Positions 15,172-18,307 of a stretch of DNA of 64,000 bases are shown here, piece after piece. The notes beneath the pieces were generated by a model. The model saw nothing but the letters and a program-made list of their open reading frames with translations. It did no database searches and was not told the origin of the DNA. The position numbers were made by a program, and so were the translations under genes. How positions within the stretch are numbered: position 1 is the stretch's first letter; each line of letters begins with the position of its first letter. The DNA lies in sequence record OQ708376.1. One strand, given 5' to 3'. The stretch comes from Escherichia phage vB_EcoM_CRJP21.

Positions 15172-15476
15172 AAAAATTATTAGTTCCGTTTATTTCTTTT
15201 TTAATTATAAGTGGATGTGCAGAACAAGTAAAACTACAATCCCCTACACCAATTAAACAAGAAATTCTGTTAGAAAGATGTGATGATGATACACCTCTAC
15301 CACAAAAAATTATGATTGACAAAAATGGTTTTAAAGGTTATGATGGTGCAGAAATTCTTAAAGTACTTACTCGTTGGGATGCAGTATACAACGAATGTGC
15401 TTTAAAACATGATGCATTAATTAAAACTATTCGTGATTTACAAGGTAAAGATATTAAAATCAATATCAAGGAATAA
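15168..15476 (+). CDS. o-spanin candidate (outer-membrane lipoprotein)
   Basis: signal peptide with lipobox LIISGC. Confidence 0.5.
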   Translation: MKKLLVPFISFLIISGCAEQVKLQSPTPIKQEILLERCDDDTPLPQKIMIDKNGFKGYDGAEILKVLTRWDAVYNECALKHDALIKTIRDLQGKDIKINIKE

Positions 15477-15477
15477 A

Positions 15478-16089
15478 ATGAACAAATATCATGTTTACTA
15501 TACGACCAAATTATCACTTCTTGACGAATTAAATCAACGAAGTACTAAGATGAAACGCTACACTTTAAATGGTATTACTTTTCGATATTTCCCACAAAAA
15601 GTTCTTACATTTATTAAGAATCCAAAATGCGTGGCATGTGGGATTGAAGCTACTGAAGTACGCATTGAACGTTCATTATGTTCTGATCCAGTATATGGTA
15701 AACCACATTTAAATGTATATGCTGTATGTGGTCTTTATGAAGTTTTAATGACAGTTGACCATAATCATCTGGCATCTAAGGGTGGACCTGATTTAGAGTC
15801 AAACTTTAATACTATGTGCTCCAGATGTAATCAACTACGTTCGAATAAAACTGAAACAGTTGATGAGTTTCTTGAGAAAGTTAAAGGTCGTAATCTTCTC
15901 CAAGAACATATGAATAATTTCTTTAATGTACAAAAAAAGAAAAATAACATTGACAAGTCGAAACTACTAGAAGAACGTAGGTTACGTCAAGAATTATGGG
16001 AAACTGATCATCTATGGCATGTTCGAGAGTTTGGTCGTCATATGAAAGCATTGAAAAAAGAACAGAAGAAATTGAATAAACATGATTGA
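15478..16089 (+). CDS. HNH endonuclease
   Basis: CVACG ... VDHNHLASKGG ... CSRCN motif set; ATG at 15478 right after o-spanin stop. Confidence 0.6.
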   Translation: MNKYHVYYTTKLSLLDELNQRSTKMKRYTLNGITFRYFPQKVLTFIKNPKCVACGIEATEVRIERSLCSDPVYGKPHLNVYAVCGLYEVLMTVDHNHLASKGGPDLESNFNTMCSRCNQLRSNKTETVDEFLEKVKGRNLLQEHMNNFFNVQKKKNNIDKSKLLEERRLRQELWETDHLWHVREFGRHMKALKKEQKKLNKHD

Positions 16090-16102
16090 TATGATATTAT
16101 AG

Positions 16103-16131
16103 GGACTTGAGTATTCAAGTCCTTTTTTTTT
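16103..16131 (+). terminator. intrinsic terminator
   Basis: ggacttga-gtat-tcaagtcc plus 9 T. Confidence 0.75.
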
Positions 16132-16142
16132 GGAGAAAATAT

Positions 16143-16415
16143 ATGAAAACAAAATTATTTCCACAACAAATAATGATTGAACTGTGCGAACATCAGTCTG
16201 GTGAAGTTGTTACAATCAGTGGTGATACGTATTCCATCATTTTAAATGAACAACAATTTGATCATACAAACCATACGAATGAACTGTATAATCTTATGTT
16301 TATGGACGATAAGAGTGAAAAATACTATCATTGTACATATGAACGATGTATAGATACAACACCATTTTGTAATGAAATGGTTGGTGTTAAATGTTATGAA
16401 TGTGAAGTGTTATGA
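16143..16415 (+). CDS. small Cys-rich protein, tandem paralog 1
   Basis: MKTK...ELCEH...YYHCTYER...C..C shared with next ORF. Confidence 0.55.
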   Translation: MKTKLFPQQIMIELCEHQSGEVVTISGDTYSIILNEQQFDHTNHTNELYNLMFMDDKSEKYYHCTYERCIDTTPFCNEMVGVKCYECEVL

Positions 16416-16435: not shown

Positions 16436-16792
16436 ATGAAAACAAAAATCTTTCTACCACAAACCATGATGGAACTGTGTGAACATGATGCAGGGGATGT
16501 TGTCACTATTAGTGGTTCCTGGAATGAGAGTACTGAAGACTTTATGCCAGATGAGGTATATTCTGTTGTTTTAAATGAACAGTACAATACAAGCCGTTGG
16601 AATGCACAGTACAATCTAGTTTTTCTTGACAATAACAATGAAAAGTACTATCATTGTACGTATGAACGAGGTCTGACAGAACGTAACTACACAACTCCTT
16701 TCTGTGATGAAATGGATGGTGTAAAGTGCTATGAAGTTTATGTTCGTCAGGTTCCAGTTGTTACTTACAAAACCGAGTGGGATTATCTGTAA
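16436..16792 (+). CDS. small Cys-rich protein, tandem paralog 2
   Basis: same N-terminus and Cys pattern as 16143-16415. Confidence 0.55.
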   Translation: MKTKIFLPQTMMELCEHDAGDVVTISGSWNESTEDFMPDEVYSVVLNEQYNTSRWNAQYNLVFLDNNNEKYYHCTYERGLTERNYTTPFCDEMDGVKCYEVYVRQVPVVTYKTEWDYL

Positions 16793-17190
16793 TGCTTAAA
16801 GATTTAGATTTTTCAAATTTAGAGATCATCAGTGCAGTGAAGAATATTACTGATATGGATGATGAAAAAGGTGTAATGGTAACTATCACTTTCGTAAAGG
16901 AAGAGGATAGCTATAAGCATCTTACTGGAATTGAAGAACTAATTCATAAAACCAATCTTGAGAATGATGGTAAACTCATCAAGCTTCAGGCTTCATATAC
17001 GCAAAAAACGTCAAATTTTATAGACCTAAATAATGTAGTCAAGGTGGTATACAATCATCCTGATCACACATATAGGAACACGACAAGAAATGAAAATGTT
17101 GCTAACGATTCGAATATTATCGAAGATGTTGAATTCATAAACACAATTTTTGATCGTTGTTCTAAGGATTTAAAAAAAGTATACATGTAA
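16792..17190 (+). CDS. hypothetical protein
   Basis: TAATG stop-start overlap with upstream gene. Confidence 0.5.
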   Translation: MLKDLDFSNLEIISAVKNITDMDDEKGVMVTITFVKEEDSYKHLTGIEELIHKTNLENDGKLIKLQASYTQKTSNFIDLNNVVKVVYNHPDHTYRNTTRNENVANDSNIIEDVEFINTIFDRCSKDLKKVYM

Positions 17191-17210
17191 TGGGACATTA
17201 TATGTTCCAA

Positions 17211-17219
17211 TGATATAAT
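17211..17219 (+). promoter_or_regulatory. extended -10 promoter candidate
   Basis: TGaTATAAT at head of the ORF-poor region. Confidence 0.4.
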
Positions 17220-17227
17220 GTATATAG

Positions 17228-17716
17228 AAAATGACAACGGACATTGAAAAATGGACACTGAGAACCTACTTCTCTTGAAAATGTAAAGGATAGATGAGCT
17301 TTACCGTTGTAGCGAACAGCAGAAGAAACCTGTTAGAGTACTGGCATTTAAACAAACACGATGTAAGACCACGAATCACGGCGACACGGCTGTATAAAGA
17401 ACTCCGATAAGCATACAGAGAGTTCCTAGATAGATGTATAAGGTTCGCACCTTACCAGATTTGCTAAGGGAGTTTAAGAATAGCGGACGCAATTTTACAA
17501 GAAAGTTGCGTCCAAAATTTGAGAACAGGTACTACTTTGATCGAATAGAGTTAGTACTGAGTGCTGTTGATGAAAAGACCAGCGACCGTTGCATATGACT
17601 GCGATAGAGAGAAACCGAGCAACCCGCTTTCGCTCTCTAAATTTTGGTACAAGAAAGATCCGTCCAAAATTTGAGAAATTCGCAATTCGATAATATCCGA
17701 TGCCATCATCGTCAAG
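17228..17716 (+). ncRNA. candidate structured RNA and/or micro-ORF locus
   Basis: about 0.5 kb without any ORF of 60 codons or more, locally more G+C-rich, two 29-bp direct repeats each in a hairpin, ends at an intrinsic terminator. Confidence 0.3.
17497..17677 (+). repeat. two 29-bp direct repeats (27/29 identical) 152 bp apart
   Basis: acaagaaagttgcgtccaaaatttgagaa at 17497-17525 and acaagaaagatccgtccaaaatttgagaa at 17649-17677. Confidence 0.8.
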
Positions 17717-17740
17717 AGAGACTTAATTGTCTCTTTTTTA
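17717..17740 (+). terminator. intrinsic terminator
   Basis: agagac-ttaatt-gtctct plus 5 T. Confidence 0.6.
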
Positions 17741-17878
17741 TTATCTTCATTCCCCTGCGGGGGATGTAATAGTCCTCAACAAATCCCGTCAAGTTTTTAA
17801 AGTACATTATCATTTTCAGAAGGAACTAGTTTACGAAGTAAACGCAGTGACTTCTTGAGTTACGAGAGAACGAAGTGA

Positions 17879-18307
17879 ATGAGTAACACAACGAAAATAT
17901 CCGATAAATCTGAATTAACACAAATGTTATTCAAAGAATATTTTGAGTTCCAGATAAAAGACGAACATCAATTACCACAGCAATATTTGAAAAGAATTAA
18001 AGATCCGTCAGTAATTACTAAAGAAACTAATTTTTATAATAGTATTTTAGATTTCGTTAAATCAGTTCATACAACAAGACCTATTGTAGTTTTGTTTTTT
18101 GATAAATCTATTCCTTTAGTAGTTCCTGAAAATGTATTTTTTATCTCAGAAACTGATTTAAATAATCAAAGTACTGTAAGTAGATTAAGAAATTGCTTAC
18201 TTGTAGTATGTGATTCTTCTTTGTATATTAATAGAATACTATGGGATAGAAGTAAACGCAATACAGTTTCGGAAATGAATCCTGAAATTACCTTTATTAT
18301 TAACTAA
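17879..18307 (+). CDS. hypothetical protein
   Basis: 142-aa ORF. Confidence 0.5.
   Translation: MSNTTKISDKSELTQMLFKEYFEFQIKDEHQLPQQYLKRIKDPSVITKETNFYNSILDFVKSVHTTRPIVVLFFDKSIPLVVPENVFFISETDLNNQSTVSRLRNCLLVVCDSSLYINRILWDRSKRNTVSEMNPEITFIIN

What the first reader, a model, noticed from the sequence alone, without database searches (positions are those of the whole stretch)
17211..17740. ORF-poor, G+C-elevated 0.5-kb unit with two 29-bp direct repeats, each in a different hairpin
Seen: between an extended -10 element (17211-17219) and an intrinsic terminator (17717-17740) there is no ORF of 60 codons or more, unusual in this packed genome, and the stretch looks more G+C-rich than its surroundings. 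Two 29-bp direct repeats (27/29 identical) lie 152 bp apart; the first pairs with upstream ggacgcaa, the second with upstream aaattttgg. A UGCG-tetraloop hairpin (ccccTGCGgggg, about 17752-17763) follows the terminator. Three micro-ORFs fit: 17294-17410 (38 aa), 17434-17598 (54 aa) and ATGA-coupled 17595-17693 (32 aa), the last two each translating a repeat as TRK[LI]RPKFE. Inference: a structured non-coding RNA with duplicated modules, or a cluster of small basic peptides, possibly acquired horizontally.
Basis: partly seen in the sequence, partly recalled or inferred. Interest (0 to 1): 0.7.

Follow-up and report, generated by a model that had tools for sequence, protein, structure and literature searches.

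The report
New large structured jumbo-phage RNA gene
The ORF-free stretch is the gene for a roughly 0.5-kb, intricately folded non-coding RNA that giant RaK2-like phages keep in three or four copies, and it matches no RNA family in Rfam 15 or in the literature I could search.

Summary
Window 17259-17878 is the longest stretch without an ORF of 60 codons or more. It holds an extended -10 promoter, a 30-nt direct repeat (28/30), an intrinsic terminator and a CCCC-UGC-GGGG hairpin.

It is a non-coding RNA gene, not a peptide cluster. The three micro-ORFs are broken by stops and frameshifts even in close relatives. The nucleotide sequence is conserved across RaK2-like jumbo phages (Asteriusvirus, Mimasvirus, Eneladusvirus, Alcyoneusvirus) and in many metagenomic contigs of 150-370 kb.

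On 56 distinct sequences, 90% of cells in 58 proposed base pairs are paired, against 38-45% when partners are slid. 37 pairs show compensatory changes. Three helices are pseudoknots.

Each genome carries 3-4 old paralogs at syntenic sites; the window holds one. The two repeats are copies of a portable peripheral hairpin module.

No Rfam 15 family matches, and I found no paper describing it.

A complete copy also lies in a defence island beside ffs in two E. coli chromosomes.

Function is unknown. Best guess: a trans-acting folded RNA made early by host RNA polymerase. The main rival is a cis-acting leader or switch.

The parts
17192..17219 (+). Sigma-70 promoter: -35-like GGGACA (17192-97), 16-nt spacer, and extended -10 TGATATAAT (17211-19). 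The predicted start is near 17226.
   Evidence: scores it 10/12 with TG. TGnTATAAT is conserved at a fixed distance in all homologs. Transcription itself was not shown.
17226..17739 (+). Predicted body of the non-coding RNA, about 514 nt, from the start site to the terminator U-run.
   Evidence: DNA-level conservation at 66-81% across genera. nhmmer E-values range from 1e-14 to 1e-183 in 100+ loci. Covariation is shown. No conserved ORF.
17234..17310 (+). Pseudoknot PK2. The 5' segment ACAACGGA (17234-41) pairs with the loop of hairpin P3, ACCGUUGU (17303-10). It encloses P1 (17242-53, CAUU-GAAA-AAUG) and P2 (17272-76 with 17286-90, conserved loop GAAAAYGUA).
   Evidence: helix 1: all 8 pairs have changes on both sides. 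P1's own-versus-chimeric folding energy is -3.7 vs -0.8 kcal/mol. P2 is counted.
17298..17313 (+). P3 stem (GCU 17298-300 with AGC 17311-13). It is flanked by the conserved GAUGAG and CG.
   Evidence: Paired in 96-100% of cells, with 2 of 3 pairs compensatory.
17316..17393 (+). Long-range helix P4 (ACAGC 17316-20 with GCUGU 17389-93). It encloses P5 (17330-33 with 17378-81) and a variable insert (17334-77). In some paralogs the insert is replaced by a UUCG or UCG loop.
   Evidence: P4 has 3 compensatory pairs and P5 is 96-98% paired. Insert variants are visible.
17384..17437 (+). Pseudoknot PK3. ACA (17384-86, inside P4) pairs with UGU (17435-37, in the conserved GAUAGAYRUAUAAGG).
   Evidence: Three pair states occur: ACA/UGU, AUG/CAU and AUA/UAU. 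Paired in 94-96% of cells, with 2 of 3 pairs compensatory.
17399..17454 (+). Hairpins P6 (GAACUC 17399-404 with GAGUUC 17420-25) and P7 (UAAGG 17439-43 with CCUUA 17450-54).
   Evidence: In P6 all 6 pairs are compensatory. P7 is UGAG/CUCA in other lineages.
17463..17472 (+). Near-invariant single-stranded motif GCUAAGGGAG.
   Evidence: UAAGGGA is invariant in A1 and nearly so in A2.
17472..17526 (+). P8 carrying module 1. Outer stem is GUUU/GAAC and inner stem is GGACGCAA (17485-92) with UUGCGUCC (17506-13). Repeat copy 1 is 17496-17525.
   Evidence: own -12.2 vs chimeric -4.6 kcal/mol. Mimasvirus-type copies have a short GCCA-GAAA-UGGC hairpin here instead.
17529..17557 (+). Hairpin P9 (GUACUA 17529-34 with UAGUAC 17552-57). 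Its conserved loop is UUGAUCGAAUAG.
   Evidence: 22 distinct sequences all fold, at -11.6 kcal/mol against -5.6 for chimeras.
17540..17691 (+). Pseudoknot PK1. The P9 loop AUCGAAU (17540-46) pairs with AUUCGAU (17685-91).
   Evidence: helix 9: all 7 pairs are compensatory and 98.4% of cells are paired. Variants include AUUGUAU/AUACAAU, UCAUAU/AUAUGA, CUUGAAU/AUUCAAG and UUCGUGU/ACACGAA.
17563..17583 (+). Hairpin P10 (GCUG 17563-66 with CAGC 17580-83).
   Evidence: 20 distinct stems; own -5.0 vs chimeric -2.3 kcal/mol.
17584..17632 (+). Nearly invariant 49-nt core, GACCGUUGCAUAUGACUGCGAUAGAGAGAAACCGAGCAACCCGCUUUCG. It contains P11 (17588-92 with 17601-05), P12 (GAGAG 17607-11 with CUUUC 17627-31) and P13 (GAG-CAA-CCC, 17617-25).
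   Evidence: Invariant columns are listed. P12 is 100% paired in 56 sequences, as GAGAG/CUUUC, GGAAG/CUUCC, GCGAG/CUUGC and GGACG/CGUUC. P11 varies only by G-C/G-U/A-U exchanges that keep pairing.
17639..17677 (+). Module 2 hairpin (AAAUUUUGG 17639-47 with CCAAAAUUU 17664-72). Repeat copy 2 is 17648-17677.
   Evidence: The module is absent from the copies between the endonuclease VII and baseplate-hub genes (copy B) and from RaK2.
17699..17713 (+). Hairpin P14 (GAUG 17699-702 with CGUC 17710-13). Its 3' strand CGUCAAG recurs in the downstream box.
   Evidence: Paired in 92% of cells. The co-varying repeat with the box is shown.
17714..17739 (+). Intrinsic terminator: core stem GAGAC 17718-22 with GUCUC 17729-33, followed by UUUUUU.
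   Evidence: Four of 5 pairs are compensatory. The terminator is absent from many family members, including the 121Q copy at 192.8 kb (copy C).
17747..17768 (+). Conserved G+C-rich hairpin UUCAUU-CCCC-UGC-GGGGG-AUG.
   Evidence: Unique in the window. GGGGGAU is invariant in all 56 aligned members, including those without a terminator. It is therefore part of the unit.
17774..17791 (+). Conserved box CCUCAACAAAUCCCGUCA. It ends in a copy of the P14 3' strand.
   Evidence: Unique in the window. Conserved family-wide. Co-variation with the P14 3' strand runs CGUCA/CGUCA, then CUUCA/CUUCA in RaK2, then ACGAAG/ACGAAG in the divergent subfamily.
17819..17854 (+). Hairpin ahead of the next gene (ATG at 17879): GAAG...GUUUAC-GAA-GUAAAC...CUUC.
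   Evidence: Read from the sequence. An analogous hairpin, GAAUU...AAUUC, occupies the same place in other genera. Not tested formally.
17294..17693 (+). Three micro-ORFs (17294-17410, 17434-17598, 17595-17693). These are rejected as genes.
   Evidence: starts are lost, and stops and frameshifts appear in homologs, including close relatives.

Best explanation
The locus is a self-contained gene for a large, highly structured non-coding RNA of about 0.5 kb.

Shown:
- It belongs to a family found in RaK2-like jumbo phages, with 3-4 old paralogous copies per genome. The window holds one, the copy after the structural-protein gene (copy A).
- The sequence folds, by covariation, into at least 14 helices. 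Three of them are pseudoknots that lock the 5' end to P3, the P4 domain to the central junction, and the P9 loop to the 3' region.
- A 49-nt core is almost invariant.
- It encodes no conserved peptide.

Inferred:
- Host sigma-70 RNA polymerase transcribes it early from its own extended -10 promoter.
- In this copy most transcripts end at the intrinsic terminator.
- The RNA acts in trans as a folded molecule. The invariant core would be the site that binds a conserved partner or carries out chemistry.
- The two 30-nt repeats are two copies of a portable peripheral hairpin module, serving as a tertiary brace or a protein-binding site.
- The G+C hairpin and box following the terminator belong to the functional unit and may allow an alternative pairing with P14.
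For: Conservation without coding:
- DNA identity is 66-81% across genera whose flanking genes do not match.
- nhmmer finds a member in every one of 100+ fetched loci.
- The micro-ORFs are not conserved.

Structure:
- On A1 (26 sequences), 93.2% of cells are paired against 30-43% for slid controls, and 34 of 60 pairs are compensatory.
- On A2 (56 sequences), 90.2% are paired against 38-45%. 37 of 58 pairs are compensatory, covering 468 cells, and all five measures were reached by 0 of 500 shuffles.
- Hairpins that MAFFT misregisters fold far better with their own partner strands than with swapped ones.

Independence from neighbours:
- Copies sit in three different syntenic contexts. One, between the endonuclease VII and baseplate-hub genes (copy B), is flanked on both sides by genes on the opposite strand.
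- A complete unit lies in an E. coli defence island. The two flanking island proteins tested have no jumbo-phage homologs.

Promoter and terminator:
- Both are conserved, and the terminator stem covaries.

Module portability.
Against: - There is no expression data for any family member. RNA-seq-defined ncRNAs exist only for the related phage PA5oct, and they are not detectably homologous.
- Many members, including the 121Q copy at 192.8 kb (copy C) and most of a divergent subfamily, lack the terminator and run into a co-directional gene through conserved hairpins. That fits a cis-acting leader as well as it fits a free RNA.
- The co-varying repeat of the P14 3' strand in the box suggests a conformational switch.
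- The partner or activity of the core is unknown.
Confidence: 0.6

Rival explanations
1. A cis-acting leader or switch. The folded RNA acts on the polymerase that makes it, or on its own 3' region, to control termination at 17714-17739 or expression of downstream early genes. This could work by processive antitermination of the HK022 put type, or by a P14/box conformational switch.
For: - The unit always lies directly downstream of a sigma-70 promoter.
- In this copy a terminator and then a co-directional gene follow.
- The 121Q copy at 192.8 kb (copy C) has no terminator and ends about 20 nt before gp416.
- The divergent subfamily has conserved hairpins up to the next gene's ribosome-binding site.
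- The box repeats the P14 3' strand and changes together with it and with the P14 5' strand.
Against: - The copies between the endonuclease VII and baseplate-hub genes (copy B) are followed by genes on the opposite strand in 121Q, Serratia BF and Erwinia Hallingskeid.
- The few downstream gene products compared by eye look unrelated between copies; this was not tested formally.
- 500 nt with three pseudoknots and a 49-nt invariant core is far more than known antiterminator RNAs need.
- Alternative pairing was not tested formally. My per-sequence scoring was too coarse.
Confidence: 0.28
2. An RNA-primed replication origin or another DNA-level cis element. The transcript would form a primer or R-loop, as ColE1 RNA II or T4 oriF/oriG do. 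The conserved G+C hairpin and box would be the DNA part. A chromosomal island would then carry a copy in order to be replicated or packaged by the phage.
For: - There are 3-4 copies spread over a genome of about 350 kb.
- The transcript of about 500 nt comes from a host-type promoter.
- Conserved sequence lies beyond the terminator.
- A complete unit, without adjacent phage genes, sits in an integrase-bearing island.
Against: - Covariation across 14 helices and three pseudoknots, plus an invariant internal core, is not expected for a primer.
- A terminator sits between the RNA and the putative origin DNA.
- There is no change of GC-skew polarity at the locus.
- No replication gene is recognisable in the island.
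Confidence: 0.06
3. A cluster of small basic peptides: the three micro-ORFs, two of which translate the repeat as TRK[LI]RPKFE.
For: The ORFs exist, and two are ATGA-coupled.
Against: - Stops and frameshifts interrupt all three in homologs.
- The ATG of ORF 17434 is ACA or ATA in 21 of the 25 homologs aligned.
- CMSTMSU, 94-95% identical in DNA, already breaks ORF 17434 at codon 11.
- Substitutions follow base-pair partners, not codons.
Confidence: 0.01
4. A decayed remnant of a protein gene, or a mobile ribozyme such as an intron-like element.
For: - Some GenBank records annotate short hypothetical CDSs over it.
- The unit occurs in unrelated contexts.
Against: - No long ORF on either strand is conserved. 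The longest per member is 23-54 aa on + and 28-85 aa on -, at varying positions.
- Rfam intron and ribozyme models do not match, even at E up to 10.
- The flanking ORFs are complete, with their own stop and start.
- Positions are syntenic across genera, so the element is not actively mobile.
Confidence: 0.02

Closest known systems
ROOL and GOLLD RNAs (large ornate RNAs of phages and prophages; Rfam; cryo-EM homo-oligomers, PMC12286853)
   Same: They are 0.5-0.8-kb non-coding RNAs carried by phages. They have many helices, pseudoknots and highly conserved junctions, and their function is unknown.
   Different: - No covariance-model match.
- Not associated with tRNA genes.
- Hosts are Enterobacterales jumbo myoviruses.
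- 3-4 paralogs per genome.
- Oligomerisation could not be tested.
OLE and raiA-motif RNAs (large bacterial structured RNAs)
   Same: Similar size class, ornate conserved structure, and (for OLE) function as a ribonucleoprotein scaffold.
   Different: They are chromosomal in Gram-positive bacteria. There is no sequence or model similarity and no associated protein genes at this locus.
HK022 put RNAs (cis-acting antiterminator RNAs)
   Same: A phage RNA placed directly after host-type early promoters and ahead of terminators.
   Different: put is about 70 nt with two stem-loops. This RNA is about 500 nt with three pseudoknots. The copies between the endonuclease VII and baseplate-hub genes (copy B) have no co-directional downstream genes.
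ColE1 RNA II / T4 oriF-oriG primer transcripts
   Same: A structured transcript of about 550 nt from a sigma-70 promoter, with several copies per large genome (as for the T4 origins).
   Different: This RNA has an intrinsic terminator inside the unit, far more covariation, and no skew switch.
PA5oct ncRNA001/002 (RNA-seq-defined lncRNAs of a related jumbo phage, PMC7318152)
   Same: ORF-free regions of 240-450 nt in a jumbo phage of the same wider group. They are transcribed at high levels early, by the host polymerase.
   Different: nhmmer finds no similarity with the family profile. Their structure has not been analysed.
phi29 pRNA
   Same: A phage-encoded structured RNA that acts as part of a machine, with loop-loop pairing that covaries.
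   Different: pRNA is 174 nt, single-copy, and found in small podoviruses. Nothing here links this RNA to packaging.

Membership tests
Any Rfam 15 family (4227 models) | Covariance-model score at or above the family's gathering threshold | tested here: not met
   No hit in the whole window. Only chance snoRNA-type hits with E of 0.1 or more in 17100-17900. Nothing but SRP RNA in eight related loci.
ROOL / GOLLD | Match to RF03087 / RF01998-type models | tested here: not met
ROOL / GOLLD | Frequent adjacency to tRNA genes | tested here: not met
   No tRNA in the 64-kb window. tRNAs appear in only 1 of 12 related loci, and there they are 3 kb away.
ROOL / GOLLD | Homo-oligomeric RNA-only assembly | not testable with these tools
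   This needs SEC-MALS, mass photometry or cryo-EM on in vitro transcripts.
tRNA / tmRNA | Cloverleaf or tmRNA architecture | tested here: not met
   ARAGORN finds nothing.
Hammerhead ribozyme (lead: GAUGAG-hairpin-CGA at 17292-17315) | Conserved core CUGAUGA ... GAAA with C3, U4, A6 and A13 invariant | tested here: not met
   The positions before GAUGAG vary (UA, CA, AC, UG, CG). A6 is U in Kaldavass, XbC2 and L043. The base after CG varies among A, G, C and U. No Rfam hit.
Group I / group II intron | Interrupts a gene, with an intron core recognisable | tested here: not met
   The upstream ORF ends with its own stop at 17190 and the next ORF starts at 17879. No Rfam intron hit at E up to 10.
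Small-protein genes | Start codon, reading frame and length conserved in relatives | tested here: not met
Bacterial intrinsic terminator | G+C-containing hairpin followed by a U-run | tested here: met
   The stem covaries. Termination efficiency was not measured.
Sigma-70 extended -10 promoter | TGnTATAAT, conserved in position | tested here: met
   Activity was not measured.
put-type processive antiterminator RNA | Promoter-proximal RNA that makes its own polymerase read through terminators | tested here: inconclusive
   The position fits. Size and architecture do not. Read-through cannot be tested with these tools.
ColE1-type primer RNA / origin | Origin DNA at the 3' end of the transcript, with replication polarity switching there | tested here: inconclusive
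   No GC-skew switch at the locus. Skew is a weak test in phages that replicate by recombination.

The most novel reading that the evidence does not exclude
This would be a previously undescribed class of large pseudoknotted RNA, a ribozyme-like or machine-like RNA of giant phages. It is kept as three or four diverged paralogs with one invariant 49-nt active core. Its 3' region can switch between two pairings (P14 versus the box). E. coli has captured a copy into a defence island, where it could act as a decoy or sensor against these phages.
Probability: 0.3. Interest if true: 0.92.

Novelty: categorically new. Interest (0 to 1): 0.82.

Why it matters
Large, ornate non-coding RNAs are rare. 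Each new class (RNase P, group I/II introns, OLE, GOLLD, ROOL, raiA) has opened new biochemistry or structural biology.

This one has several practical advantages:
- It comes with more than 60 distinct natural sequences.
- It has clear covariation, three pseudoknots and a 49-nt invariant core.
- It has built-in natural experiments: three or four paralogs per genome, and modules present or absent.
- Its phages are culturable on E. coli K-12 (slurp01, Sharanji, PBECO4, 121Q).

That makes it directly testable by deletion, compensatory mutation, pull-down and cryo-EM.

It would also correct the annotation of dozens of jumbo-phage genomes, which currently place spurious hypothetical proteins over it.

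The copy in an E. coli defence island hints at RNA-level conflict between giant phages and their hosts.

Tried and rejected
- Rfam at gathering threshold on the window and on related loci, and at E up to 10 on the locus. Nothing real.
- ARAGORN. Nothing.
- Other copies inside the window, by blastn and nhmmer. None.
- Exact 16-mer scan of bacterial genomes. It returned 120 rows at the cap; none of the 80 loci delivered (L062-L141) matched the family profile, so those are chance hits.
- Homology with the RNA-seq-defined ncRNAs of phage PA5oct. None.
- Plasmid collection. No match.
- Jumbo-phage homologs of the proteins flanking the E. coli copy. None.
- mafft-qinsi was unavailable.
- MAFFT misregisters P1, P7, P8, P9, P10 and module 2. 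I tested these by own-versus-chimeric folding instead.
- My first P12 pairing (GAGAG with CUCUC at 17633-37) was wrong. The wider alignment shows the partner is CUUUC at 17627-31.
- An alignment-free search for PK1 and PK2 in wide regions was too noisy to be useful as a statistic.
- Scoring of the P14/box alternative pairing was too coarse to decide.
- The hammerhead-like GAUGAG...CGA resemblance was rejected, because the core positions vary.
- A Shine-Dalgarno-like reading of GCUAAGGGAG was rejected, because no conserved start codon follows.
- Seven literature searches found no description of this RNA.
Full report
**Source of the window.** The window comes from an Asteriusvirus jumbo phage. 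The region is 99.6% identical to Escherichia phage vB_Eco_slurp01 and 97-99% identical to PBECO4, 121Q and relatives.

**Checking the observation.**
- The ORF-free stretch, 17259-17878, is 620 nt. It is the longest in the 64-kb window; the next is 294 nt.
- The direct repeat is 30 nt, 28/30 identical, at 17496-17525 and 17648-17677.
- G+C is 0.403 against a window mean of 0.346. That is raised but not extreme, in the top 8% of windows.

**Not protein-coding.**
- In 25 homologs, each of the three micro-ORFs loses its start, gains stops or changes frame.
- ORF 17434-17598 starts with ACA or ATA in 21 of the 25 homologs. In phage CMSTMSU (94-95% DNA identity) it is cut at codon 11.
- The longest ORF per family member is 23-54 aa on the + strand, at varying positions.
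- Several GenBank records nevertheless carry short hypothetical CDSs over the region. Examples are 121Q gp516 on the minus strand, RaK2 ORF245 and fHe-Yen9-04 g347/g348.

**Conserved as nucleotide sequence.**
- blastn finds the region at 66-71% identity in GAP32, CBB, XbC2, fHe-Yen9-03/04, Serratia BF and Erwinia phages. Only the 3' half matches, at 72-74%, in Salmonella 7t3/Munch and Klebsiella Kae01.
- The flanking genes give no DNA match in these phages.
- A profile search finds a full-length divergent copy in RaK2, with E = 3e-43.
- A pattern built from the invariant core retrieved 60 metagenome loci and 28 IMG/VR loci. Every one contains a family member, mostly on contigs of 150-370 kb.
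- 62 distinct near-full-length sequences are in hand.
- The 80 bacterial-genome loci delivered by the exact 16-mer scan (capped at 120 rows) were all chance.

**Paralogs.** 121Q has three copies.
- Copy C lies at 192,815-193,335, after gp415. The RaK2 copy found here lies after a putative sigma-factor gene; whether that position corresponds to 121Q copy C was not tested.
- Copy A lies at 247,397-248,129. This is the window's copy.
- Copy B lies at 326,612-327,222, between the endonuclease VII gene and the baseplate-hub operon, both on the opposite strand.
- The copy B position is the same in Serratia BF and Erwinia Hallingskeid. The duplication therefore predates these genera.
- Some contigs of about 366 kb have four copies.
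- The window itself has one copy.

**Structure.** I read the helices from the alignments and then tested them.
- On 26 sequences (A1), 60 pairs in 12 helices are paired in 93.2% of cells. When the 3' partner is slid by 1-3 columns this falls to 30-43%. 34 pairs have changes on both sides, covering 242 cells against 77 ± 7 in shuffles.
- On 56 sequences (A2), 58 pairs are 90.2% paired against 38-45% slid. 37 pairs are compensatory, covering 468 cells, and all five measures were reached by 0 of 500 shuffles.
- Three helices are pseudoknots.
  - PK2 joins 17234-41 to the P3 loop at 17303-10. All 8 pairs are compensatory.
  - PK3 joins 17384-86 to 17435-37. It occurs in three states: ACA/UGU, AUG/CAU and AUA/UAU.
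  - PK1 joins the P9 loop at 17540-46 to 17685-91. All 7 pairs are compensatory and 98.4% of cells are paired.
- P12 was first mis-assigned. The wider alignment shows GAGAG (17607-11) pairing with CUUUC (17627-31). It is 100% paired, as GGAAG/CUUCC, GCGAG/CUUGC and GGACG/CGUUC.
- MAFFT puts hairpins P1, P8, P9 and P10 out of register. They fold much better with their own 3' halves than with those of other members. P9, for example, folds at -11.6 kcal/mol against -5.6.
- The 49-nt core at 17584-17632 is nearly invariant in all paralogs and genera.

**The repeats.**
- Each repeat is the 3' part of a hairpin module with the consensus ACAAGAAAG(A/U)U(C/G)CGUCCAAAAUUUGAG.
- Module 1 caps P8. Module 2 follows P12.
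- Mimasvirus-type copies have only module 2, with a short GCCA-GAAA-UGGC hairpin at P8.
- Copy B types have only module 1. 121Q copy B and RaK2 have neither.
- Only Asteriusvirus copy A and a few others, including the E. coli copy, have both.
- The module is therefore a portable peripheral element.

**The unit extends beyond the terminator.**
- The G+C hairpin (17747-68) and the box CCUCAACAAAUCCCGUCA (17774-91) are unique in the window. Both are conserved in all members.
- Many members lack the terminator, so the hairpin directly follows P14. These include 121Q copy C and most of a divergent, G+C-richer subfamily.
- In copy C the homology ends about 20 nt before gp416.
- In the divergent subfamily, conserved hairpins run up to the next gene's ribosome-binding site.
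- The box ends in a copy of the P14 3' strand, and the two change together.
  - CGUCA(A/G) occurs twice in 34 distinct enteric-type sequences.
  - CUUCAAG occurs twice in RaK2, where the P14 5' strand is GAcAG rather than GAYG.
  - ACGAAG occurs twice in the divergent subfamily, where the 5' strand is UUUCG.
- This fits either an alternative pairing (a switch) or two sites for one partner. I could not test it rigorously.

**Known families.**
- No Rfam 15 model matches. There are no tRNA or tmRNA genes.
- A hammerhead-like GAUGAG-hairpin-CGA resemblance fails on the core positions.
- Seven full-text searches found no description of the RNA.
- The related phage PA5oct has RNA-seq-defined lncRNAs (PMC7318152). 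They are not detectably homologous.

**A bacterial copy.**
- Two of 5,426 complete E. coli genomes carry a complete unit: promoter, both modules, terminator, hairpin and box. nhmmer gives E = 4e-141.
- The nearest phage copy is Serratia BF copy B, at 80.6% identity.
- The unit sits in an island of about 10.8 kb between ffs and ybaA.
- The island has an IS3-disrupted tyrosine integrase and candidate defence systems: PDC-M45 (DuOB + DUF488), PDC-S16, and a weak PDC-M01B hit.
- In other strains the same site carries other defence cargo, including a type III restriction enzyme and SMODS/SLATT genes.
- The two flanking island proteins tested have no jumbo-phage homologs. The RNA unit therefore appears to have moved without adjacent phage genes.

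**Interpretation.**
- Shown: a conserved, non-coding, heavily base-paired RNA gene family with its own promoter. It is absent from Rfam and from the literature I could search.
- Inferred: early transcription by the host polymerase, and a trans-acting folded RNA whose invariant core binds a conserved partner or is catalytic.
- In favour of trans action: copy B has opposite-strand neighbours, and the E. coli copy stands without adjacent phage genes.
- Main rival, at about 0.28: a cis-acting leader or switch. It is supported by the terminator-less copies and by the P14/box repeat.
- An RNA-primed origin is unlikely.
- Peptides and a decayed gene are excluded.

Noticed in passing
L185:14860-15540 (E. 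coli LR-29-1, NZ_AP027515.1 3478976-3479465; also NZ_CM130020.1 245292-245781): A complete copy of the RNA unit lies in the chromosome of two E. coli strains. It sits in an integrase-bearing defence island between ffs and ybaA, next to candidate systems PDC-M45 and PDC-S16. The two flanking island proteins tested have no jumbo-phage homologs.
   Followed up: partly
Outside the window: 121Q (KM507819) 192815-193335 and 326612-327222; slurp01 (LT603033) 266748-267358: Two further paralogs of the RNA occur per Asteriusvirus genome. One lies after gp415 (copy C). The other lies between the endonuclease VII gene and the baseplate hub on the opposite strand (copy B). Some contigs of about 366 kb have four copies.
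   Followed up: yes
window 17707-17716 and 17784-17793: The 3' strand of hairpin P14 (CAUCGUCAAG) is repeated in the box following the terminator (UCCCGUCAAG). The two copies change together across the family: CUUCAAG twice in RaK2 and ACGAAG twice in a divergent subfamily. This suggests alternative pairing or two sites for one partner.
   Followed up: partly
L201, L212, L228, L231, L236, L245 (metagenome contigs): A divergent, G+C-richer subfamily keeps the promoter, core, PK1, G+C hairpin and box. It has a different 5' domain and mostly no terminator. A conserved structured leader runs to the next gene.
   Followed up: partly
GenBank records over the homologous region (e.g. 121Q gp516, RaK2 ORF245, fHe-Yen9-04 g347/g348, 7t3_0550-0552, Hallingskeid CDS0411-0414): Short hypothetical CDSs, on either strand, are annotated on top of the RNA gene in several phage records. 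They are not conserved and are probably spurious.
   Followed up: partly
window 35024-35317: This is the second-longest stretch without an ORF of 60 aa or more (294 nt). It is AT-rich and directly follows a strong terminator-like hairpin, GGGAACC-UUUU-GGUUCCC plus a T-run, at about 34995-35018.
   Followed up: no
window 16107-16415 and 16436-16792: Two adjacent ORFs (102 and 118 aa) are clearly paralogous. They share motifs LCEH..G.VVTISG, YHCTYER, TTPFC.EM.GVKCYE. They lie just upstream of the RNA gene and after an HNH endonuclease ORF (15433-16089).
   Followed up: no
window 17819-17854: A hairpin (GAAG...GUUUAC-GAA-GUAAAC...CUUC) lies between the box and the start of the next gene (ATG at 17879). 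An analogous GAAUU...AAUUC hairpin occupies the same place in other genera.
   Followed up: no
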